From a virus (Duplodnaviria; Heunggongvirae; Uroviricota; Caudoviricetes), in IMG/VR virus record IMGVR_UViG_2795385955_000003: a stretch of 64,000 nt of DNA; one strand, 5' to 3'. Shown piece by piece: positions 2,055-29,457 of this stretch; the first letter of the stretch is position 1, and every line of letters begins with the position of its first letter. Under the pieces are notes generated by a model. The model was given only the letters and a program-made list of their open reading frames with translations. It had not been told where the DNA came from and did no database searches. The position numbers and the translations under genes are program-made.

Positions 2055-2965
2055 GCACCGTCGCAGCCACCGCCATGTCCCCGTCGGCCGCTCGTGACCT
2101 CACCGAGCGCATCCGCACCACCATTGACCGCGCCTGGGACCTCATCGCCAAGGCATACACAGACCGCGCCTGGGCTGTCCTCGGATACCCGACCTGGGAC
2201 GTCTACTGCGAACGCGAGTTCGGGTCCACCTGGTTCAAGCTGCCCCGCGAGACCCGCGGCGAGGTAGTGCAGTCCCTGCGCGACCTCGGCCTGTCCACGC
2301 GCGCCATCGGCTCCGCGATAGGGGTCGATGACCGCACCGTCCGCCGCGACCTGTCAGGCGCGGCATCTGCCGCACCTGCGGCTGTCATGGGCACCGACGG
2401 CAAGACGTACGCGTCCACCCAGCCTGTCCGCCCTCACCTGGCCGTCGTGCCAGACCTCCCCACAACCGAAGACCACCCGGAGACCGCCCCGATGTGCGAA
2501 GGCGGGACGGCCTCCGGGGTTCCACTGACCCCGTCGCTACTCATGACCGGCGACGGGTACTCAGTCGTGCACAACGCACCCGTGACCGACGGTGTAGAGC
2601 CGACCCTCACCTCGTTCGCCATGTGCCCCTGCGGCGCCCGAGCCGAGCTGTACGACAACGCGACCCAGGAAGACCGCGAACGCTTCGACGAGTTCGACGA
2701 CATCCACCGCTACTGCGACGACCTGACAGAACCTGTCGCGGCAGAACCGGAACCCGAGCCAGCGCCAGCCCCAGCGCGCCGGAAACCGATCACAGACTCC
2801 TTCGACGACGCCACCACGGCAGTCACGAAGGCGGTGAAGCGGGTAGAGGCACTGGCGGCCGACGACCGCTTCGACAAGAACGCGGACCAACTCGCCCTTC
2901 GCAAGAGCGACCTGGTCCGCGCACGAGACGCGCTGCAACGCGTCATCGAGAAGTTCCCCTCGTAA
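2051..2965 (+). CDS. hypothetical phage protein with HTH-like segment
   Basis: 304-aa ORF with coding-consistent codon usage. LRDLGLSTRAIGSAIGVDDRTVRRDL. Confidence 0.5.
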   Translation: MSTVAATAMSPSAARDLTERIRTTIDRAWDLIAKAYTDRAWAVLGYPTWDVYCEREFGSTWFKLPRETRGEVVQSLRDLGLSTRAIGSAIGVDDRTVRRDLSGAASAAPAAVMGTDGKTYASTQPVRPHLAVVPDLPTTEDHPETAPMCEGGTASGVPLTPSLLMTGDGYSVVHNAPVTDGVEPTLTSFAMCPCGARAELYDNATQEDRERFDEFDDIHRYCDDLTEPVAAEPEPEPAPAPARRKPITDSFDDATTAVTKAVKRVEALAADDRFDKNADQLALRKSDLVRARDALQRVIEKFPS

Positions 2966-2985
2966 CCACAACAAGGAGTTGCTTC

Positions 2986-3849
2986 ATGTCGAATGCTATA
3001 CCGCTGCACCGGCCACCGGCCATCACGACGGACATCGAAACCATCGACGGCCCGACCGCCGACGCGTACCTCAAGTTCAACACCCACAACCGCCCCCTCA
3101 ACGAGCGCAAGGTCATCCAGCTGGCCGCCGACATGGAGGCAGGCCGTTGGCAGATGAACGGCGAGGCAATCAAATTCGATACCGAGGGCGCTCTGCTGGA
3201 CGGCCAGCACCGCCTACACGCCGTCTCCTTGTGCGGTGTGTCCATCGACTCGGTCGTTGTCCGTAACCTGCCGCCTGAAACCCAGATCACTATGGATCAG
3301 GGCACCAAACGGTCACCCAGCGACCAACTCAACCTGTCCGGCATCACCGCCTCCAAGTCCGATGCCTCGGCCGTCAAGACGCTGATCATCTGGGAGCGCG
3401 GCTGGTTCTACACCGACCGCGCCACCGGCGCAGTCACCAGCTCTGAGATCGTCGAATGGACCCTCGCCAACCCCGACACCTTTGAGTTGATCAGGCGCGG
3501 CACCCACTACACGCGCATCAAGGCGCGCCGCGGCCTCATCATGGCCGTCTACGCGGGCATCGGACGCACCCACGGTGTCGAGGTCACCTCCGAATTCTTC
3601 CAACGCGCCCTCGACGGCGTCGGTCTCGCCGTCGGCTCGCCAATCCTTGCACTGCGCAACAGGTTCGACCGTGTTCGTGGCGAGGGCTTCAAGATGCCCG
3701 ACGCCGAGGCCATCGGCTACTTCGTCGCCGCCTTCAACCACTGGCTATCCGACCACCACGTGGCCCGGTTGCAGCAGCCCAAGGGAGGCTGGAACAAGAC
3801 CAATTTCCCGCAGCTCATCGGCGCGCCAGCGCAGGAAGTACTCCGATGA
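2986..3849 (+). CDS. ParB-like nuclease domain protein
   Basis: RBS aaggag. ParB N-domain motifs ...LLDGQHRLHAV... Confidence 0.6.
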   Translation: MSNAIPLHRPPAITTDIETIDGPTADAYLKFNTHNRPLNERKVIQLAADMEAGRWQMNGEAIKFDTEGALLDGQHRLHAVSLCGVSIDSVVVRNLPPETQITMDQGTKRSPSDQLNLSGITASKSDASAVKTLIIWERGWFYTDRATGAVTSSEIVEWTLANPDTFELIRRGTHYTRIKARRGLIMAVYAGIGRTHGVEVTSEFFQRALDGVGLAVGSPILALRNRFDRVRGEGFKMPDAEAIGYFVAAFNHWLSDHHVARLQQPKGGWNKTNFPQLIGAPAQEVLR

Positions 3850-4762: not shown

Positions 4763-5186
4763 TTGAGAACACCTCGCAACGTCACCCCATCGAGCACCTA
4801 GCTGGCTGCCTGGACGGCAACACCTCCAACTACATCGAGGGTATGGAGCGAACTGGGCAACAGCAGCTCCTCAAGTCCGACCTCCTCCCTGCCAACGCCG
4901 GGCGGGTGTGGTCAGGCGAGGGCGGCGCAATGCTCGACATCAGTGGCTGGGATGTTCTGGAACAGTGGGGATTCCAACGCGGCGAACGCGTTGAGGGCGA
5001 CCTGCTATTCGTTCGGGCCACCCTCCCGGAGGGGTGGTCACGCAAGGGCAGTGAACACGCCATGCACTCAACCATCGTCGACGACCGCGGCGTAGAACGC
5101 GTCAGCGTCTTCTACAAGGCCGCCTTCTACGACCGCCGCGCCAGTATGTCCGTGATCACCGACCCCGGAGGCAAAGCGACGCCGCC
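4759..5186 (+). CDS. hypothetical protein; C-terminus uncertain, no in-frame stop before a frame change near 5187
   Basis: ORF MIENTSQRHPIEH... Frame continues Arg-rich and non-coding-like after ~5187. Confidence 0.35.
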
Positions 5187-5351
5187 GTGGCCCTGCCGGA
5201 CGAATGGGCGCTGCTCACCACCGAAGAGCGCGACGGATTCCGAGGCGCGCTCGATAGCTATCTGCGTCGAGCCGAAGAGTATCCAGACATCTACGAGGAC
5301 CGAGTGCCCCGTGTGCGTAGCCTCCTGGCGCTGGTGGAGGCCGCAGCATGA
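5187..5351 (+). CDS. small hypothetical protein (54 aa), or C-terminal part of the upstream gene after a frameshift
   Basis: GTG start. VALPDEWALLTTEERDGFRGALDSYLRR... Stop overlaps next ATG. Confidence 0.3.
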   Translation: MALPDEWALLTTEERDGFRGALDSYLRRAEEYPDIYEDRVPRVRSLLALVEAAA

Positions 5352-5647
5352 TTCGCCAACTTCCCGCCGCCGCTATGGCTGCCGCGCTGGCGCTCGCTAC
5401 CGCAGCGCCTGCGTCGGCCGACAGGGTAAACGACGTCGCCAATGACATCGGCGGCGCAGTCTGCGTCATCGTCGGCGCCGACCCAACCTTCCACGGCATC
5501 AACAGCATCGGCCGGGCGCTCAACCAACGGGGGTTCACCGACCAGGCCGCCGGACGCGTCATCGCTCTCTCGGTATCCGCCTACTGCCCATGGCATCAAC
5601 CACTCATCGACCTGTACACCAAGGCATCCCGCTGGAGGACTGCATGA
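5348..5647 (+). CDS. small secreted protein with signal peptide
   Basis: N-terminus MIRQLPAAAMAAALALATAAPASA-DR. Ala-rich h-region and AxA site. Confidence 0.5.
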   Translation: MIRQLPAAAMAAALALATAAPASADRVNDVANDIGGAVCVIVGADPTFHGINSIGRALNQRGFTDQAAGRVIALSVSAYCPWHQPLIDLYTKASRWRTA

Positions 5648-6216
5648 GCCGCGACGTATGGGTCATCGACCTGGAGACAACCGGACTCGACCGGGCCGTC
5701 CACCTACCCGTGGAAGTGGCCGCGATCAACCTCAAGAACGGACGCGAAATCCACTTCGTGCCCTTCATCACCGGCGAGGCACTAGGACAAGCGGACCGAG
5801 AAGCCATGCGGATCAACAAATACCACGAGCGAGCGCTGTACAAAGACCAGCTCGACCGCAACAACTCGATTCGCTGCTACCAAGACCTGTTCGAGTTGTT
5901 GCACGGCCAAACATTGGCAGGCGCCAACCCCAGGTTCGACGCCGACATGCTCCTCAACGGATACGCGTGGCAGCTAGAACAGGGGCCACTCGTAGCCGGG
6001 GTCAGCACCCGCATCGAAGAGCCCTGGCACCACCGGCTCGCAGACCTATGTGCTTACACCGCAGGCCAACTCGACATCTCGCCGGACGACATACCCGGCC
6101 TCGCCAAGGTCTGCGAACTCGTCGGCGTCACCAACGAAGCCGAACACACCGCGATAGCTGACGCCCGCGCAACCGTCCAATGCTTCCGCCGCCTCTACCC
6201 CGGGAAGGACCAATGA
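5644..6216 (+). CDS. DnaQ-like 3'-5' exonuclease (DEDDh family)
   Basis: Exo I motif VIDLETTGL. Exo III motif HTAIADARAT. Confidence 0.7.
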   Translation: MSRDVWVIDLETTGLDRAVHLPVEVAAINLKNGREIHFVPFITGEALGQADREAMRINKYHERALYKDQLDRNNSIRCYQDLFELLHGQTLAGANPRFDADMLLNGYAWQLEQGPLVAGVSTRIEEPWHHRLADLCAYTAGQLDISPDDIPGLAKVCELVGVTNEAEHTAIADARATVQCFRRLYPGKDQ

Positions 6217-6467
6217 ACGACCCCGTCGCACGCCACAACCAACTGGTGAGCAAGAACATCGAGATCGCCATGAGCGAACTATCGCCCATGGAGCGGCTAC
6301 GGAAGCAGACAGCCGCCAATTCCAACACCCTCGGGTACGCCGTCTTCCTGGGACTGCAACGACAGGCCAACACCTACGCCGGGACAGTGCCCGCAGACGA
6401 GGTCCAGCGTCGGCGCCGCAGGAACCGCGCGGCCCGCAAGGCGCGCCGCAGGAACCGCGCAGCATGA
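6213..6467 (+). CDS. small protein with Arg-rich tail
   Basis: ORF with C-terminal RRRRRNRAARKARRRNRAA encoded by a 17-bp direct repeat. Confidence 0.4.
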   Translation: MNDPVARHNQLVSKNIEIAMSELSPMERLRKQTAANSNTLGYAVFLGLQRQANTYAGTVPADEVQRRRRRNRAARKARRRNRAA

Positions 6468-25308: not shown

Positions 25309-25644
25309 TCATCGCTGTACTTCCACATATGAGACGCCGTACGTTTCTATCTCGGGGTGTTCGTCGAGTATTTCTGACCCTGTAGCAGGGTCGTAGTGCT
25401 CGATCGGGACGCCGACATCGCGTGCCCACTTAACCAGGGCCGCGGCTGCGCCTTCCGGGGTGACGTAGACGCCGATCCAGCCGCCCCGGTGCTCAATCAG
25501 TTCGAGTTGCGCGACCCACACCTTGGCTACTACGGCGTATCCGGCGCGGTCGAGCGCGTCCAGCGCGGCATCTGCCTGTGGCCATCCGCCGCCCAGGCTG
25601 TCGGCGATGATGTCGCGCGGTGCGGCGACGTCGGGGCCGGTCAC
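25309..25644 (-). CDS. hypothetical protein, third gene of minus-strand 3-gene operon
   Basis: ORF coupled (overlapping start/stop) to upstream gene. Confidence 0.4.
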   Translation of the reverse strand: MTGPDVAAPRDIIADSLGGGWPQADAALDALDRAGYAVVAKVWVAQLELIEHRGGWIGVYVTPEGAAAALVKWARDVGVPIEHYDPATGSEILDEHPEIETYGVSYVEVQR

Positions 25645-25835
25645 GGTCGGATGTTCTGGCGTCGGACCTCGGCCAGTGTCTCGTCGACCATCTTGTCTGC
25701 CGCGTCGTTGGTCAGTCGGATGCCGTCGCCGACAAGGAACTCTTCCTTGTCGAGGTCGATGTCGTCGACGACCAGGTCATCGCCGAAGGTGAGGCGTTTG
25801 AGGTCGGCTTCGCTGTGACTGCTCATGAGGGTCAT
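25641..25835 (-). CDS. small protein, possible RHH-type antitoxin-like (BrnA-like)
   Basis: C-terminal GIRLTNDAADKMVDETLAEV resembles ribbon-helix-helix strand plus helix. Coupled to flanking genes. Confidence 0.3.
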   Translation of the reverse strand: MTLMSSHSEADLKRLTFGDDLVVDDIDLDKEEFLVGDGIRLTNDAADKMVDETLAEVRRQNIRP

Positions 25836-26083
25836 TGTGCCCCTCCTTTCCGGTACTTGGTGGGCATGGCGTGGATACATACCCAGGTCCAGTCCTGGGT
25901 GGCGTGTGGGACCAGGATCAGCTCCAGCTCTACACCGGTGTCGTCGGTGCCTATGAAGTAGAGGCGCCAGATGCCGTCGCGGTTGTCGACGAGCAGCGGC
26001 ATACCGGCGTTGCGGAGTGCTGCCGTGACGCGGCGCTTGTTGGCGCGCATCCGCGCTTTCGCTGTGAGTGTCACTCTTGCCAT
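25832..26083 (-). CDS. small protein with weak BrnT/RelE-fold toxin-like C-terminal pattern
   Basis: WRLYFIGTDDTGVELELILVPH...WTWVCIHAMPTKYRK resembles DUF497/BrnT (F.IG..G.LL.VV...RIISARKAT). First gene of operon 11 bp from the palindromic operator. Confidence 0.35.
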   Translation of the reverse strand: MARVTLTAKARMRANKRRVTAALRNAGMPLLVDNRDGIWRLYFIGTDDTGVELELILVPHATQDWTWVCIHAMPTKYRKGGAQ

Positions 26084-26093
26084 GACTCAGAAT

Positions 26094-26109
26094 GTATAGT
26101 GCACTATAC
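26094..26109. promoter_or_regulatory. 16-bp perfect palindrome GTATAGTGCACTATAC: operator embedding divergent -10-like TATAGT hexamers
   Basis: Seen directly. Identical copy at 29602-29617. Additional GTATAG / GTATAC half-sites at 26142-26157. Confidence 0.5.
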
Positions 26110-26167
26110 GAAAGAACAAGCCGTAACGGCCTTGCTTATGTGTATAGCTTTGTATACGTTTCGAGTC

Positions 26168-26506
26168 ATGAAAAGCCTTTATGTAAAACGTATTGCCGTC
26201 ATGGGTGCCGCCATTGCCGCCCTAACGGCACTCCCAACTGCCACCGCTTCCGCGTTCCCGGAACGTTGCCTGTACGCCGCGACAGACGCCAAGACCTGCC
26301 TGGGTGCCCGACCGGCACCCTTCACGCCAGCAGGCGGCGGCGGATACAAGCCCCCGGAGGACCCGGAATGCCCCGAGGGCCAGCACCATCCACCTACAGC
26401 TCCGGCAAGTCCTGCCGCGGGCGAAACTGGAGGTAACAGCGCTGGTAGCGGGTCTGCCGGTAGCGGTGGGTCCTCGGCGAGTGGAGGGGCTGGTACCGGA
26501 AGGTGA
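26168..26506 (+). CDS. small secreted protein with Gly/Ser-rich C-terminus
   Basis: Signal peptide MKSLYVKRIAVMGAAIAALTALPTATASA. AT-rich 5' codons. GS-rich tail. Confidence 0.5.
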   Translation: MKSLYVKRIAVMGAAIAALTALPTATASAFPERCLYAATDAKTCLGARPAPFTPAGGGGYKPPEDPECPEGQHHPPTAPASPAAGETGGNSAGSGSAGSGGSSASGGAGTGR

Positions 26507-26560
26507 TGGTCGCGGCTACCGAGCGGCTATACAGCCAATCCCCAATTCTGTTGCCGCACC

Positions 26561-26590
26561 GCTATACCGCGGTATAGCTTCGTTTTCAGA
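26561..26590 (+). terminator. intrinsic terminator-like hairpin GCTATAC-CGCG-GTATAGC followed by CTTCGTTTTC
   Basis: 18-bp perfect palindrome then U-rich tract. Arms carry the same GTATAG/CTATAC half-site as the operator, in everted order. Confidence 0.45.
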
Positions 26591-26603
26591 CAACAAAACA
26601 GCG

Positions 26604-26728
26604 GACGACGTGAACAGGATGCAGGTCGGTTATCTCGGGGTACGCCCCCGTAGTTCAAGTTAGAACGCCCCGAGCCAAGCGGGGAAATGGAGCCAAACCC
26701 GCCCAGCGCCAACCACGTTCACGTCGTC
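26604..26728 (+). ncRNA. Y-RNA-like module A (Ro60-binding-type stem motif, non-tRNA-like interior)
   Basis: 12-bp closing stem GACGACGTGAAC/GTTCACGTCGTC. 5' strand carries shared motif GAACAGGATGCAGGTCGGTTATC. Internal hairpins. Confidence 0.4.
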
Positions 26729-26763
26729 CCCCAGACCACAACTACATAGACACCAGATGGTGC

Positions 26764-26886
26764 GAGCAGGACGCAGGTCGGTTACCACTTGCTAATGGAG
26801 AGGTCGCGGGTTCGAGTCCCGCCAGCCAGCCCCCGGCTGTAGCTCAGTTGGCAGAGCGCTAAACCCCGGTCAGCACACACACGTTC
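26764..26886 (+). ncRNA. Y-RNA-like module B with tRNA-like domain (T-arm, closed acceptor hairpin, D-arm)
   Basis: 5' motif GAGCAGGACGCAGGTCGGTTACC. T-arm gcggg-ttcgagt-cccgc. Acceptor strands cagccag/ccggctg joined by 2-nt linker. D-arm gctcagttggcagagc. 3' strand AACCCCGGTCAGCACACACACGTTC. Confidence 0.55.
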
Positions 26887-26925
26887 GCCCCATCACCCAA
26901 CACAACTCCATACATAACAAGGTGT

Positions 26926-27050
26926 GAACAGGACTTCGTTCGGTTATCTCCTTTCCCGAGAGAGACGCGGGTTCGAATCCCGTCAACCACGAAAGTGGTT
27001 GTAGCTCAGTGGCCTAGAGCGCTAAAACCCGGACGACACCCACACGCTCA
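26926..27050 (+). ncRNA. Y-RNA-like module C with tRNA-like domain
   Basis: 5' motif GAACAGGACTTCGTTCGGTTATC. T-loop ttcgaat. Acceptor hairpin caaccac-gaaa-gtggttg (7 bp perfect). D-arm gctcagtggcctagagc. Conserved 3' strand. Confidence 0.55.
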
Positions 27051-27092
27051 CACCACCTCAAACACCAGCAGACGCACGCGCGCAGGCGGTGT

Positions 27093-27222
27093 GGACAGGA
27101 CGCAGGTCGGTTACCAAAACAGTCAGGTGTGGGTTCGAGCCCCACCACCTCGCTCGCGGGGTGTAGCCCAATTGGTAGAGGCAATTGTCCACATACGCCG
27201 GTCAGCAGCCCACACGCCCACA
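27093..27222 (+). ncRNA. Y-RNA-like module D with tRNA-like domain
   Basis: 5' motif GGACAGGACGCAGGTCGGTTACC. T-arm gtggg-ttcgagc-cccac. Acceptor cacctcg-ctcg-cggggtg (one G.U). D-arm-like segment. 3' strand CGCCGGTCAGCAGCCCACACGCCC. Confidence 0.55.
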
Positions 27223-27257
27223 CCACCTACGCGCACGCACGACAGACAACCCGATGT

Positions 27258-27370
27258 GAACAGGACGCTCGGTCGGTTATCACTCAATTGGTAATGCAGG
27301 TTCAAGCCCTGTCGCCCGCACCCAGTGCGGGTGTAAAAGCGAAATCCCGGTCAGCACACACACGTTCACA
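27258..27370 (+). ncRNA. Y-RNA-like module E (T-arm plus closed acceptor hairpin, no D-arm)
   Basis: 5' motif GAACAGGACGCTCGGTCGGTTATC. T-arm cagg-ttcaagc-cctg. Hairpin cccgcac-cca-gtgcggg. 3' strand AAATCCCGGTCAGCACACACACGTTC. Confidence 0.5.
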
Positions 27371-27402
27371 TCACCCGCCCAATAGCCCCCCGCGGGTGGC
27401 AC

Positions 27403-27472
27403 GAGCAGGATCGCAGTCGGTTACCCCACCCCTCGCAAGGATGACGAACCCCGGCCGCCCTTCACACGTTCG
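27403..27472 (+). ncRNA. minimal Y-RNA-like module F (conserved stem strands only, ~20-nt interior)
   Basis: 5' motif GAGCAGGATCGCAGTCGGTTACC and 3' strand GAACCCCGGCCGCCCTTCACACGTTC with no tRNA-like insert. Immediately upstream of rsr. Confidence 0.35.
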
Positions 27473-27504
27473 CGCCGCCCGCACCTCTAACAAGGAGATG
27501 CACG

Positions 27505-29220
27505 GTGGACGTTCTCACCACTATCGGAACCCGTAAGACGCCGCAGTCGCAGCAGGCGGACCCCCGGCAGGTGAAGAACTCCGCTGGTGGCTACACCTTC
27601 ACCATCGACGACGAGGCCCTGCTGCACCGCTTCCTCACCCTCGGCACCGACGGCGGCACCTACTACACCAACGCCGCCGAACTCACCAGGGACACAGCGG
27701 CCGTCGTGCTCCGCGCAGCAGCGGCCGACCCGGTCCGCCTCGTCCAGCACATCGTCGAGGTGTCCGTGGATGGACGCGCACCCCGGCAGAACCCGGCCCT
27801 GTTCGCCCTCGCCATCGCCGCAGCAGCAGAGGACGTCGACGGCCGCCGCGCCGCCGCCGCAGCCCTGCCCACGGTCGCCCGTACCGGCACCCAGCTCTAC
27901 ACGTTCGTCAAGTACATGGAGCAGTTCCGCGGGTGGGGCCGCGCCATGCAGCGCGCCGTCGGTGGCTGGTACCTCGACAAGCCCGTCGACCGCCTCGCCT
28001 ACCAGCTGGTCAAGTACCGGCAGCGCGAAGGCTGGATGCACCGAGACCTCCTACGCCTGTCCGGCCCCACCACGGCGGACCCGGCCCGCCGCCTCGCCTT
28101 CAACTGGGCAGTCGGCAAGGGCCTGAACGACTACATCGGCAAGGTCCAGCCCCTCACCGCCGAGCAGTTGAAGGCAGGGGAGCGCAACGCCTCCCGACCC
28201 AAGCTGCCTAACGTCGAGCTGGCGGTTGACCACCCCCTTGCGATCATCGAGGACTTCGAGGACGCCCAGCGCGCCACCCAACCCAAGGAATGGGTGAGCA
28301 TCATCCGACGCGGCAACGGTCTTCCCTGGGAAGCGCTGCCAGACGTCGCGCTCAACTTCACGGCCGTGTGGGAAGCGCTGATTGAGCACGGGCTGCCGCA
28401 GACGGCTTTGATGCGCCAACTGCCTCGCCTGACCCGGCACGGAGTCCTACACGGTGAATATCTGGACCGTGTCGTAGCTCAGCTCCAGGACCCCGACCGC
28501 CTACGCAAGGGCCGCGTCCACCCAGTCAACGTCCTGATCGCTCAGCGCACCTACGCGTCCGGGCGGTCAGCGCGCGGCGACTCCACCTGGACACCGGAAC
28601 GCAAGGTCGTGGACGCCCTGGACGCCGCGTTCTACAACGCCTACGGCGCGGTAGAGCCGTCGGGCAAGCGCACCCTGCTGGCGCTGGACGTGTCCGGCTC
28701 CATGGGCGCCGCAATCTCAGGTATGCCGCTGACATGCCGCGAGGCCGCAGCCGCACTCGCACTCGTCACCGCCAATGTCGAGCCCGACCACGAGGTCGTC
28801 GGCTTCACCGACGGCCAGCAGGCATCCCGCATGGGTTACGGCTCCCCCTCCCGGCGGCTCATCTCCCCGCTGGACATCACACCGCGCCGTCGCCTCGACG
28901 ACGTGTGCCGGTACACCGCGAACCTCGCATTCGGCCGCACCGACTGCGCGCTCCCCATGCTGTGGGCGCAGAAGGCCAAGTGCGAGTTCGACACGTTCGT
29001 GGTCATCACCGACAACGAGACCTGGTTCGGCGACGTCCACCCGCACCAGGCGCTCCGCGACTACCGCAACAAGATGGGCATCAACGCCCGCCTGATCGTT
29101 GTCGGCATGACGGCAACCCGCTTTACCATCGCCGACCCCGCCGACCCCGGCCAGCTCGACGTGTCCGGTTTCGACTCAGCTGTCCCGCAGCTGATCTCGG
29201 ACTTCTCGGCCGGACTGTAG
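27505..29220 (+). CDS. rsr: Ro60 / Rsr ortholog (TROVE domain + von Willebrand A domain with MIDAS)
   Basis: N-terminal TROVE signature (GGYTFTIDDEALLHRFLTLGTDGGTYY). C-terminal vWA with DVSGSM MIDAS motif. RBS aaggag. 571 aa. Confidence 0.85.
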   Translation: MDVLTTIGTRKTPQSQQADPRQVKNSAGGYTFTIDDEALLHRFLTLGTDGGTYYTNAAELTRDTAAVVLRAAAADPVRLVQHIVEVSVDGRAPRQNPALFALAIAAAAEDVDGRRAAAAALPTVARTGTQLYTFVKYMEQFRGWGRAMQRAVGGWYLDKPVDRLAYQLVKYRQREGWMHRDLLRLSGPTTADPARRLAFNWAVGKGLNDYIGKVQPLTAEQLKAGERNASRPKLPNVELAVDHPLAIIEDFEDAQRATQPKEWVSIIRRGNGLPWEALPDVALNFTAVWEALIEHGLPQTALMRQLPRLTRHGVLHGEYLDRVVAQLQDPDRLRKGRVHPVNVLIAQRTYASGRSARGDSTWTPERKVVDALDAAFYNAYGAVEPSGKRTLLALDVSGSMGAAISGMPLTCREAAAALALVTANVEPDHEVVGFTDGQQASRMGYGSPSRRLISPLDITPRRRLDDVCRYTANLAFGRTDCALPMLWAQKAKCEFDTFVVITDNETWFGDVHPHQALRDYRNKMGINARLIVVGMTATRFTIADPADPGQLDVSGFDSAVPQLISDFSAGL

Positions 29221-29226
29221 GAACGC

Positions 29227-29457
29227 GTGGACCCAAGGGCACAGCAGGCGCGGGAGCATCACCGGTTGCAGCGTGATGCCTCCCGCGTCGGCGAACAACA
29301 CCGGTACGAACGGGACCGGCTAGTTCGCGAGCTATGGGCCACCGAACGAGAGAAGTGGACCTACGCCACGCTGGCCGCAGCGGTGACGTGCAGCCCGGGA
29401 CTGATCCAGAAGATTCTCGACGGCCGCACCCCAACCGCCCAACACGTCACCAGGTAA
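29227..29457 (+). CDS. small HTH DNA-binding protein
   Basis: C-terminal HTH WTYATLAAAVTCSPGLIQKIL. GTG start. Confidence 0.45.
   Translation: MDPRAQQAREHHRLQRDASRVGEQHRYERDRLVRELWATEREKWTYATLAAAVTCSPGLIQKILDGRTPTAQHVTR

What the first reader, a model, noticed from the sequence alone, without database searches (positions are those of the whole stretch)
26604..29220. Prophage-borne Ro60/Rsr gene preceded by a tandem array of six Y-RNA-like noncoding modules
ORF 27505-29220 encodes a TROVE-domain plus vWA/MIDAS protein, the signature architecture of Ro60 (Rsr). Directly upstream on the same strand, 26604-27472 holds six ~70-130 nt units. Each starts with a ~23-nt motif (GARCAGGAYGCAGGTCGGTTAYC) and ends with a partially complementary strand (..CCCGGTCAGCACACACACGTTC). 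Together these can form a bulged helix like the Ro60-binding stem of Y RNAs. In bacteria, Ro60 partners with Y RNAs, some of which mimic tRNA, in RNA surveillance and decay complexes. A six-copy array with graded complexity (full tRNA-like, truncated, minimal) inside a prophage is unusual. It suggests phage-encoded RNA-quality-control or RNA-decoy functions that could affect host stress tolerance or phage-host conflict.
Basis: partly seen in the sequence, partly recalled or inferred. Interest (0 to 1): 0.85.

Follow-up and report, generated by a model that had tools for sequence, protein, structure and literature searches.

The report
Prophage Ro60 gene with six Y-RNAs

Summary
ORF 27505-29220 is a full-length Ro60/Rsr protein (TROVE + Ro60-type vWA; E 1e-103 to D. 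radiodurans Rsr). Upstream on the same strand lie exactly six modules (26602-27481).

Each module is closed by a two-part helix. Covariation across 77 distinct modules from 33 Rsr loci supports it: 87.8% of cells paired versus 28-39% when the partners are slid, and 14 of 19 pairs show double changes.

A covariance model built only from distant loci finds these six modules and nothing else significant in the 64 kb (132.8 to 31.5 bits).
- U2-U4 have the YrlA layout: T arm, 7-bp acceptor-like hairpin, D arm.
- U5 is partial.
- U1 has a head that is not tRNA-like.
- U6 is minimal and ends 24 nt before the rsr start codon.

The window from position 1357 onward is a cluster MabK M. abscessus prophage, 96% identical to prophiT37-1 and prophiGD43A-5.

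Novelty is modest. Ro genes occur in 355 phage records, and YrlA-like RNAs next to Ro60 were reported in 254 bacteria and 22 phages in 2014. What is new is detail:
- Six to seven modules per array in this prophage group, against one to five elsewhere in my sample.
- Diverse heads.
- No annotation in GenBank, plus one module miscalled tRNA-Thr.
- A linked small HTH gene and a palindrome over the putative promoter.

Function is inferred, not shown.

The parts
26561..26578 (+). Palindrome GCTATACC/GGTATAGC. It overlaps a -10-like TATAGC and lies 16 nt after a -35-like TTGCCG. This is the putative promoter/operator of the array; in this window it also scores as a terminator-like hairpin followed by TTCGTTTTC.
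   Evidence: The equivalent CTGTAC-N4-GTACAG(T) block sits at the same place upstream of the first module in L019, L022, L024-L026, L028 and L030. Both half-sites are changed together in the window. The consensus sigma-70 scan found no promoter, so the promoter role is inferred.
26602..26730 (+). U1: Y-RNA-like module with a perfect 13-bp terminal stem (26603-26615 with 26717-26729). Its head is three short hairpins and is not tRNA-like.
   Evidence: MFE z -4.0; R1 36.6 bits, E 5.9e-7; only the stem strands align.
26754..26896 (+). U2: YrlA-like module with closing stem, V hairpin, T arm, acceptor-like hairpin and D arm. It is the closest to M. smegmatis YrlA.
   Evidence: Rfam YrlA 38.9 bits, E 8.7e-7, full length; R1 132.8 bits, E 3.5e-30; the reverse complement of the M. 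smegmatis YrlA 5' probe, TTACCACTTCTAATGGAATGGTC, resembles U2 TTACCACTTGCTAATGGAGAGGTC.
26916..27059 (+). U3: YrlA-like module with a perfect 7-bp acceptor-like stem (CAACCAC-GAAA-GTGGTTG).
   Evidence: 28.8 bits over T arm, acceptor and D arm; R1 109.9 bits, E 1.2e-24; MFE z -2.8.
27083..27229 (+). U4: YrlA-like module with a 7-bp acceptor-like stem (CACCTCG-CTCG-CGGGGTG, one G.U) and an 11-nt insertion after the D arm.
   Evidence: 28.5 bits; R1 76.7 bits, E 1.3e-16.
27248..27377 (+). U5: partial module with closing stem, T arm and a 9-bp hairpin. It has no D arm; a D-loop-like AATTGGTAA lies 5' of the T arm.
   Evidence: (R1 70.6 bits, E 3.6e-15; D arm replaced by a local end). Homologues are in L016-L018.
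27393..27481 (+). U6: minimal module with closing helices and a head of about 21 nt. It ends 24 nt before the rsr start codon and lies in the presumed rsr leader.
   Evidence: (R1 31.5 bits, E 1.1e-5). A minimal or T-arm-only module sits in this rsr-proximal position in most sampled loci, not in L028 or L031.
27492..27497 (+). Ribosome-binding site AAGGAG, 7 nt upstream of the GTG start of rsr.
   Evidence: Read directly from the sequence. The M. smegmatis rsr cloning primer also starts GTGGAC.
27505..29220 (+). rsr: Ro60 orthologue, 571 aa, with a TROVE ring and a Ro60-type vWA domain carrying DxSxS (LDVSGSM).
   Evidence: Annotated 'Ro-like RNA binding protein' in OQ417969 and MW584167.
29227..29457 (+). 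Small helix-turn-helix protein (76 aa) that starts 7 nt after the rsr stop. It is linked to rsr in every sampled prophage or phage locus whose Ro is 54% or more identical; it is a candidate regulator.
   Evidence: HTH_31, 19.9 bits, below the cutoff of 27; tblastn: homologues downstream of rsr in L001, L002, L007-L028 and L030; none in L003-L006 or L029, L031-L033.

Best explanation
This is a Ro60/Y-RNA (Rsr-YrlA) cassette carried by a cluster MabK Mycobacterium abscessus prophage.

Shown here:
- A full-length Rsr gene.
- Six same-strand upstream modules that share one conserved, covarying terminal structure. From the outside in, this is: an outer helix of 9-13 bp made by the module's 5' and 3' ends; an asymmetric internal loop carrying C(A/C)GGA on the 5' side and a C/A-rich run on the 3' side; an inner GGUCGG/CCGGUC helix of 6-9 bp; and an unpaired UUAYC.
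- Variable heads. U2-U4 have the circularly permuted tRNA-like head that defines YrlA.

Inferred:
- The array and rsr are transcribed as one precursor from a promoter at about 26540-26585. There are no terminators or promoter-like sites between modules, and the spacers are only 20-35 nt and C/A-rich.
- The precursor is cut in the spacers and trimmed back to the terminal stems.
- Rsr binds the conserved stem/loop of every module.
- The heads act as effector-binding parts. By analogy with D. radiodurans Yrn1-PNPase and with M. smegmatis YrlA (cut by RNase P and given CCA), they would tether Rsr to host RNA-handling enzymes or control access to the Rsr cavity.
- U6, in the rsr leader next to the ribosome-binding site, is well placed for Rsr to regulate its own translation.

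Net effect: the prophage supplies its own set of Ro60 RNPs that redirect host RNA decay or repair, during stress or during lytic growth.
For: - Protein identity.
- Six modules, same strand, far from chance.
- Closing helices: 77 distinct modules were anchored on sequence motifs only. 87.8% of cells pair against 28-39% with slid partners; 14 of 19 pairs show changes on both sides (215 cells); the covariation score is 0.405 against 0.174 in shuffles (0 of 500 shuffles reach it).
- Strand specificity: a conserved U.G pair (70 of 77) and a frequent G.U pair (32 of 77) would be A.C mismatches on the other strand.
- RNAalifold on 18 distant modules independently returns closing stems, T arm, a 7-bp acceptor-like stem and D arm. 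20 of 33 pairs have compensatory changes.
- A covariance model from those 18 finds exactly the six window modules (132.8, 109.9, 76.7, 70.6, 36.6 and 31.5 bits). The next hit, at E 0.021, spans two real tRNAs.
- The model gives 141 hits at E <= 0.01 in 33 loci, all on the rsr strand and all upstream of rsr except a few in the tRNA array downstream of Ro in Forza (L032).
- Rfam YrlA gives sub-threshold but locally significant hits to U2-U4.
- Within a locus all modules carry the same variant of the loop motif (CAGGA in the window and L016-L021; CCGGA or CCGAA elsewhere). This fits one shared protein partner.
- Precedent: Rsr-bound YrlA and YrlB upstream of rsr in M. smegmatis, and YrlA-like RNAs in 22 phages (PMC4201824). 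Thermus phage Ro60 binds two upstream Yrl RNAs and forms a complex with host PNPase (PMC12135203).
Against: - No expression, end-mapping or binding data exist for this prophage. The papers on MabK prophages do not mention Ro or Y RNAs.
- No module reaches Rfam's gathering score.
- The published GNCGAAN0-1G motif is altered here to GCAGGA.
- Single-sequence folding is unremarkable for U2, U4 and U6 (z +1.1, +0.07, +0.34).
- U1 and U6 match only through the stem.
- The promoter is inferred; the consensus scan found none, and the palindrome also looks like a terminator.
- Much of the covariation is between paralogous modules and related sequences, so the counts are not independent events.
Confidence: 0.85

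Rival explanations
1. The repeats are mainly cis-acting parts of a long rsr mRNA leader, not a set of stable trans-acting small RNAs. They would be Rsr-binding sites that titrate Rsr or control its translation or stability.
For: U6 ends 24 nt before the start codon, next to the RBS. A minimal or T-arm-only module holds this position in most sampled loci. No internal promoters or terminators were found.
Against: Homologous modules in M. smegmatis accumulate as discrete Rsr-bound RNAs (PMC4201824). Conserved, covarying tRNA-like heads are not needed for a simple protein-binding leader. In phage Forza a module lies downstream of Ro inside a tRNA array. The two models are not exclusive, and U6 may be cis-acting.
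Confidence: 0.08
2. The array is a decayed or rearranged phage tRNA gene cluster (tRNA pseudogenes) that happens to lie next to rsr.
For: T-arm and D-arm sequences are close to canonical. ARAGORN calls a 'tRNA-Thr' in the homologous module of prophiGD43A-5. Phage tRNA arrays are common and sit next to Ro in Sparky and Forza.
Against: No tRNA is called in the window's array by ARAGORN or the Rfam tRNA model. The arm order is T, acceptor, D, with no anticodon arm. The closing helix and acceptor hairpin covary, which indicates selection. The modules are linked to rsr and on its strand in all sampled Ro loci except Streptomyces phage Yaboi, L033. U1 and U6 have no tRNA parts but keep the stem.
Confidence: 0.02
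3. The repeats act at the DNA level, as binding sites for a phage regulator (stoperator- or iteron-like) or as recombination sites.
For: Short conserved motifs recur at a regular spacing of about 150-165 bp. An HTH gene is linked to the locus.
Against: Conservation is of pairing, not of sequence. G.U pairs work on one strand only. Spacing and head length vary from 54 to 170 nt between loci. The one palindromic, operator-like site lies upstream of the array, not inside it.
Confidence: 0.02

Closest known systems
Mycobacterium smegmatis Rsr with YrlA and YrlB (Chen et al. 2014, RNA 20:1715; PMC4201824)
   Same: Actinobacterial Rsr with Y RNAs encoded directly upstream on the same strand. YrlA is about 147 nt with T arm, 7-bp acceptor stem and D arm. 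The reverse complement of its 5' probe nearly matches U2. YrlB carries only a T arm, like the rsr-proximal module of loci L003-L005.
   Different: Two RNAs there against six here. The locus there is chromosomal and here is on a prophage. The window has a head that is not tRNA-like (U1), a minimal module (U6), the loop motif variant GCAGGA, and a linked small HTH gene.
Ro plus YrlA-like RNA in cluster C mycobacteriophages (ET08, Bxz1; Pedulla 2003; Chen 2014)
   Same: Phage-encoded Ro (about 55% identical) preceded by modules with the same closing stem. In Bxz1 I found three: one tRNA-like and two minimal.
   Different: Those are lytic 155-kb myoviruses with 2-3 modules and the canonical GCCGAA motif. 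The small HTH gene is absent.
Salmonella Typhimurium YrlA/YrlB in the rsr-yrlBA-rtcBA operon (Rfam RF02553; crystal structure of the tRNA-like domain, bioRxiv 10.1101/312249)
   Same: The same two-part design: a Ro60-binding stem plus a circularly permuted tRNA-like head with T arm, acceptor stem-loop and D arm.
   Different: That operon is controlled by sigma54/RtcR and linked to RtcB/RtcA repair enzymes. It has a 6-bp acceptor stem and is not an RNase P substrate. The window modules score only 28-39 bits on the Rfam model.
Thermus phage phiLo Ro60 with Yrl1 and Yrl2 (NAR 2025; PMC12135203)
   Same: Phage Ro60 with Y-RNA-like genes immediately upstream. Binding to the phage Ro60 and a ternary complex with host PNPase were shown in vitro. 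This is the nearest functional precedent for a phage cassette.
   Different: Two RNAs, described as stem-bulge-stem with a CGAA motif; the paper never uses 'tRNA-like' or 'YrlA'. The host phylum is unrelated.
Deinococcus radiodurans Rsr-Yrn1-PNPase (RYPER)
   Same: It gives the working model: the Y RNA stem binds Rsr, the head tethers an exoribonuclease, and several Y RNAs are encoded upstream of rsr.
   Different: The Ro-binding helix and the arm order differ, reflecting a separate lineage. No link to PNPase was tested here.

Membership tests
Ro60/Rsr protein family | TROVE (HEAT-repeat ring) domain | tested here: met
   PF05731, E 6.2e-47, 161 bits against a cutoff of 23, residues 23-347.
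Ro60/Rsr protein family | C-terminal Ro60-type vWA domain with a MIDAS DxSxS motif | tested here: met
   PF25045, E 1.9e-63, residues 389-567. LDVSGSM is read from the sequence at about 28690-28710.
Ro60/Rsr protein family | Full-length similarity to Ro60 proteins with solved ring structures | tested here: met
   2NVO 1e-103; 1YVP 8.5e-101 over residues 13-569; 9NEN 2.3e-100.
Bacterial Y RNA / YrlA (Rfam RF02553) | Encoded within 4 kb of rsr on the same strand (criterion of Chen et al. 2014) | tested here: met
   All six modules lie 24-903 nt upstream of rsr on the + strand.
Bacterial Y RNA / YrlA (Rfam RF02553) | Score at or above the Rfam gathering threshold (69 bits) | tested here: not met
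   Best scores are 38.9 (U2), 28.8 (U3) and 28.5 (U4) bits. There are no hits for U1, U5 or U6. A lineage-specific model gives 31.5-132.8 bits.
Bacterial Y RNA / YrlA (Rfam RF02553) | Ro60-binding module: a helix formed by the 5' and 3' ends, interrupted by an internal loop or bulge | tested here: met
   Two covarying helices flank a conserved loop. 87.8% of cells pair against 28-39% for slid partners, and 14 of 19 pairs show double changes.
Bacterial Y RNA / YrlA (Rfam RF02553) | GNCGAAN0-1G motif in the 5' strand | tested here: inconclusive
   The window has GCAGGA at the homologous position, matching 3 of 5 specified bases. Related loci form a series: GCCGAA (Bxz1), GCCGGA (L003, L024), GCAGGA (L016, window).
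Bacterial Y RNA / YrlA (Rfam RF02553) | tRNA-like head in the order T arm, acceptor-like stem-loop, D arm, with no anticodon arm | tested here: met
   Met for U2, U3 and U4. U5 has the T arm and hairpin only. U1 and U6 do not meet it and are Y-RNA-like but not YrlA-type.
Bacterial Y RNA / YrlA (Rfam RF02553) | Accumulates as a discrete small RNA bound by Rsr; carries tRNA-type modifications or processing | not testable with these tools
   This needs Northern blots or RNA-seq, RIP, and modification mapping. It was shown only for the M. smegmatis and S. Typhimurium homologues.
tRNA genes | Cloverleaf with an anticodon arm, detected by ARAGORN or Rfam RF00005 | tested here: not met
   The only tRNAs in the window are at 1181-1270 and 1318-1393. 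The 'tRNA-Thr' of MW584167 is the 5' half of a module.

The most novel reading that the evidence does not exclude
The expanded array is a functional toolkit, not redundant copies. Each head would mimic a different tRNA class or a non-tRNA ligand. In related loci, class-I-like and class-II-like D arms occur in different modules, and here U3 and U4 have 7-bp RNase-P-competent acceptor stems. Each head would then recruit or sequester a different host tRNA-handling or RNA-decay enzyme. The whole cassette would be switched by the linked small HTH protein acting on the palindrome over the promoter. That would make it a prophage-controlled, multi-adaptor Ro60 system used in phage-host conflict or in stress survival of the lysogen.
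Probability: 0.12. Interest if true: 0.7.

Novelty: new member of a known kind. Interest (0 to 1): 0.35.

Why it matters
What bacterial and phage Ro60/Y-RNA particles do is still largely unknown. Arrays of six to seven divergent Y RNAs in prophages of a clinical pathogen (M. abscessus) offer a natural series of heads on one common Ro-binding stem. That series could be used to ask what each head recruits, and whether the cassette affects lysogen stress tolerance or phage growth.

Practically, about 0.9 kb that is currently blank in GenBank MabK prophage records can be annotated as ncRNA genes, and one 'tRNA-Thr' call should be corrected. None of this changes the accepted picture of Ro60 biology.

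Tried and rejected
- Rfam at gathering thresholds gave nothing in the array. I re-ran it with E-value thresholds.
- ARAGORN found no tRNA in the array.
- Single-sequence MFE z-scores were mixed and not informative.
- The consensus sigma-70 scan found no promoter. Its one + strand terminator-like hit is the palindrome, which I read as an operator because relatives keep the palindrome without the T-run.
- My first regex extractions of modules mis-picked the 3' anchor when the outer stem itself contained CACG or when an acceptor hairpin resembled the motif. This was fixed. The L006 search end was bounded by hand.
- Modules that lack the anchors were left out of the covariation set: Bxz1 third, Myrna first, Forza third, Yaboi.
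- The supplementary tables of Chen et al. 2014, which give per-genome counts of YrlA-like sequences, are not held. Two reviews (PMC10870794, PMC6542706) are not held either. I therefore cannot say whether six-module arrays were already tabulated.
- The G3.U70-like pair in the U4 acceptor stem is not conserved in U4-type modules of L021, L022 or L024, so I rejected it as evidence for alanine identity.
- I considered and rejected protein-coding ORFs across the array (26995-27294 and 27129-27536). The conservation pattern is one of pairing, and no CDS is annotated there in the relatives.
Full report
**What is there**

The ORF at 27505-29220 (+) starts at GTG, 7 nt after an AAGGAG ribosome-binding site. 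It encodes 571 aa with a TROVE domain (E 6.2e-47) and a Ro60-type vWA domain (E 1.9e-63). It aligns over its full length with the solved Ro60 proteins of Deinococcus (2NVO, 1e-103), Xenopus (1YVP, 8.5e-101) and human (9NEN, 2.3e-100). The MIDAS-type LDVSGSM is present. It is a Ro60/Rsr orthologue.

Upstream on the same strand there are exactly six repeated modules. The pattern CAGGA-N3-8-TCGGTTAYC occurs six times in 64 kb against zero expected. The repeat finder recovers matching 5' and 3' repeat families with a spacing of about 150-165 nt. Counting the closing stems, the modules are:
- U1: 26602-26730
- U2: 26754-26896
- U3: 26916-27059
- U4: 27083-27229
- U5: 27248-27377
- U6: 27393-27481

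**Where it is**

The region is 96% identical to the Mycobacterium abscessus prophages prophiT37-1 (OQ417969) and prophiGD43A-5 (MW584167). Similarity to these prophages begins at window position 1357, inside tRNA-Arg 1318-1393, and runs collinearly to the end of the window. These are cluster MabK prophages that integrate at attB-1, which overlaps the 3' end of a tRNA gene (PMC9934374, PMC8092301). So 'prophage-borne' is correct.

In both GenBank records the protein is annotated 'Ro-like RNA binding protein'. The 1.4 kb upstream is blank, except that MW584167 carries a 'tRNA-Thr(tgt)'. ARAGORN reproduces that call at L001 6252-6330. My covariance model, however, aligns the whole 134-nt module there at 131.6 bits. 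The tRNA-Thr is therefore the 5' half of the U2 homologue. The three papers that describe these prophages never mention Ro or Y RNAs.

**Is the closing stem real?**

I collected Rsr loci from several sources: 22 IMG/VR contigs, 4 genome contigs and 7 phage records. I extracted modules using conserved sequence anchors only, not pairing. The anchors were C[CA]G[GA]N...TCGGTTA on the 5' side and CCGG...CAYG on the 3' side. This gave 136 modules and 77 distinct stem constructs.

The structure I tested has an outer helix of 10 pairs and an inner helix of 9 pairs. The results are:
- 87.8% of cells form standard pairs, against 28-39% when the 3' partners are slid by 1-3 columns.
- 14 of 19 pairs show changes on both sides, in 215 cells.
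- The covariation score is 0.405 against 0.174 in shuffles, and 0 of 500 shuffles reach it.
- Individual pairs alternate cleanly, for example G-C 36 / A-U 35, U-A 42 / C-G 24, and U-A 47 / C-G 28.
- A conserved U.G pair (70 of 77) and a G.U/G-C/A-U position make the fold specific to the + strand, which means RNA.

Many of these sequences are paralogues or close relatives, so the cell counts overstate the number of independent events. The contrast with the slid controls, which keep relatedness, is still large.

**Is the head tRNA-like?**

I took 18 modules from loci whose Rsr is only 55-75% identical to the window's. On these, RNAalifold independently predicts the two closing helices, a T arm, a 7-bp acceptor-like hairpin and a D arm. 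20 of 33 pairs have compensatory changes, most of them in the acceptor-like stem. This order, T arm then closed acceptor stem then D arm with no anticodon arm, is the defining layout of YrlA (PMC4201824; bioRxiv 10.1101/312249).

A covariance model built from those 18 sequences finds exactly six hits in the window, all on the + strand:

| Module | Bits | E-value |
|---|---|---|
| U2 | 132.8 | 3.5e-30 |
| U3 | 109.9 | 1.2e-24 |
| U4 | 76.7 | 1.3e-16 |
| U5 | 70.6 | 3.6e-15 |
| U1 | 36.6 | 5.9e-7 |
| U6 | 31.5 | 1.1e-5 |

The next hit (E 0.021) bridges the two genuine tRNAs at 1181-1393, which is a known type of false positive.

U2-U4 align through the whole head. U5 aligns through the T arm and hairpin but lacks the D arm. 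U1 and U6 align only through the stem. Rfam's own YrlA model hits U2 full-length (38.9 bits, E 8.7e-7), and also U3 and U4 (28.8 and 28.5 bits). All are below the gathering score of 69, and nothing passes at gathering thresholds.

U2 also nearly matches the reverse complement of the M. smegmatis YrlA 5' Northern probe. U3 and U4 have 7-bp acceptor-like stems, the feature that made M. smegmatis YrlA a substrate for RNase P and CCA addition.

The published 5'-strand motif GNCGAAN0-1G reads GCAGGA here. Related loci form a graded series: GCCGAA in Bxz1, GCCGGA in L003 and L024, and GCAGGA in L016 and the window. All modules in one locus share the same variant. That is what one expects if they all serve one co-evolving protein, although gene conversion would give the same pattern.

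**How unusual is it?**

Ro genes are found in 355 phage records: 212 Mycobacterium, 115 Streptomyces, and others from Gordonia, Microbacterium and further hosts. Chen et al. 2014 reported 355 putative YrlAs near Ro60 in 254 bacteria and 22 phages, including mycobacteriophage ET08. They also showed Rsr-bound YrlA and YrlB in M. smegmatis. A Thermus phage Ro60 binds two upstream Y-RNA-like RNAs and forms a complex with host PNPase.

With my model and reading by eye, the number of modules upstream of rsr is:

| Loci | Modules |
|---|---|
| Window and ten near-identical prophages | 6 |
| L009, L013, L015 | 7 |
| L016-L018, L024 | 5 |
| L021, L025, L026 | 4 |
| L028, Bxz1 | 3 |
| Sparky (L022), BearBQ, Myrna, L019/L020, chromosomal-looking L003-L005 | 2 |
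| L006 | 1, plus a degenerate remnant seen by eye |

The kind is well known. This array sits at the top of the range I sampled, and I found no description of such arrays in the searchable literature. The 2014 supplementary tables were not available to me, so they may already list several hits for M. abscessus genomes.

**How it most likely works**

Shown: the gene, the six modules, their conserved fold and the tRNA-like heads.

Inferred from the anatomy: a single transcription unit. Upstream of the first module, nearly all phage loci have a TTGCNN -35-like element, about 16-17 nt of spacer, and a TACAGT -10-like element embedded in a palindrome, CTGTAC-N4-GTACAG. The window has TTGCCG-N16-TATAGC inside GCTATACC/GGTATAGC at 26561-26578, with both half-sites changed together. 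No promoter- or terminator-like sites lie between modules. Spacers are 20-35 nt and C/A-rich, and often carry ACAACT-N2-4-AT(A/T)G.

I therefore expect a precursor that is cut in the spacers and trimmed to the Rsr-protected stems.

By analogy with Deinococcus, Salmonella, M. smegmatis and Thermus phage phiLo, the stem binds Rsr and the head recruits or blocks partners. U6, and the minimal or T-arm-only module that holds the same position in most other loci (not L028 or L031), abuts the rsr ribosome-binding site. It could let Rsr regulate its own synthesis.

None of these steps has been tested for this element.

**Verdict**

The observation and the core interpretation are right. The rarity and significance were overstated. 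This is a new, well-supported and unusually large member of the known Rsr/YrlA family, with some annotation value and a few leads: diverse heads, the linked HTH gene with its operator-like palindrome, and a possible autoregulatory U6.

Noticed in passing
window 26540-26585; L019 about 2775-2800, L022 about 2575-2600, L024 about 2320-2345, L025/L026 about 2470-2495, L028 about 2607-2630, L030 about 2225-2245: A promoter-like block sits upstream of the first module: -35-like TTGCNN, 16-17 nt of spacer, then -10-like TACAGT inside a palindrome CTGTAC-N4-GTACAG. The window keeps the palindrome with both half-sites changed (GCTATACC/GGTATAGC). Chromosomal-looking loci L003-L005 keep only GTTACAGT plus a different palindrome, GCGTCGACGC.
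   Followed up: partly
window 29227-29457 (+): A 76-aa protein with a weak HTH_31 match starts 7 nt after the rsr stop. Homologues (54-99% identity) lie downstream of rsr in L001, L002, L007-L028 and L030. None is found in L003-L006, Bxz1, Myrna, Forza or Yaboi. It is found only in loci with a palindrome over the -10 (clear in about eight, degenerate in L016-L018), so the two may be a regulator/operator pair.
   Followed up: partly
L001 (MW584167) 6252-6330 = record 26001-26079: The annotated tRNA-Thr(tgt), gene 51 of prophiGD43A-5, is the 5' half of a YrlA-like module (131.6 bits over 6257-6390). The mBio 2021 table lists 1 tRNA for this prophage and 0 for the same-length, same-site MabK prophage prophiGD43B-2.
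   Followed up: yes
L032 (Gordonia phage Forza, NC_070763) 5236-5369: A strong YrlA-like hit (93.6 bits, full length) lies downstream of Ro, inside the phage's tRNA/tmRNA array, in the gap between tRNA-Gln and tRNA-Ile. Other hits there (5030-5159, 5612-5734) span adjacent real tRNAs and are probably false positives.
   Followed up: no
L016 2235-2403, L018 2238-2403, L024 2661-2801, L025 2757-2894, L026 2760-2893: Some modules in related arrays have a class-II-tRNA-like D arm (GTGGCAGAGCGGCCGAATGCA, similar to the window's tRNA-Ser) plus an extra hairpin. Others have class-I-like D arms. Modules within one array thus mimic different tRNA types. The window itself has none of the class-II-like type.
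   Followed up: no
spacers before modules, e.g. window 26738-26752 and 26901-26915; many loci: The motif ACAACT-N2-4-AT(A/T)G recurs about 10-15 nt upstream of many internal modules. It or a looser variant is present in 48 of 92 distinct upstream flanks. It does not fit the TANNNT -10 consensus and may be a processing signal.
   Followed up: partly
window 27148-27165 (U4 acceptor-like stem): If the stem is numbered like a tRNA acceptor stem, U4 has a G.U at position 3:70, the alanine identity pair. It is kept in the MabK group but is G-C in U4-like modules of L021, L022 and L024, so it is probably just a wobble pair.
   Followed up: partly
window 25641-26083 (-) and 26084-26600: The relatives annotate a BrnT-like toxin and antitoxin pair on the opposite strand just upstream. 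My two ORF choices gave no Pfam hit. The 0.5 kb between that pair and the array contains a + strand reading frame ending at 26506 with a Gly/Ser-rich tail; it is unannotated in the relatives.
   Followed up: no
L022 (= phage Sparky, IMG/VR contig of 63334 bp) 2000-2560 and 2852-3000: Genuine tRNA-like sequences lie directly upstream of the promoter block and the two modules. A short ORF separates the last module from rsr, unlike in the other loci.
   Followed up: no
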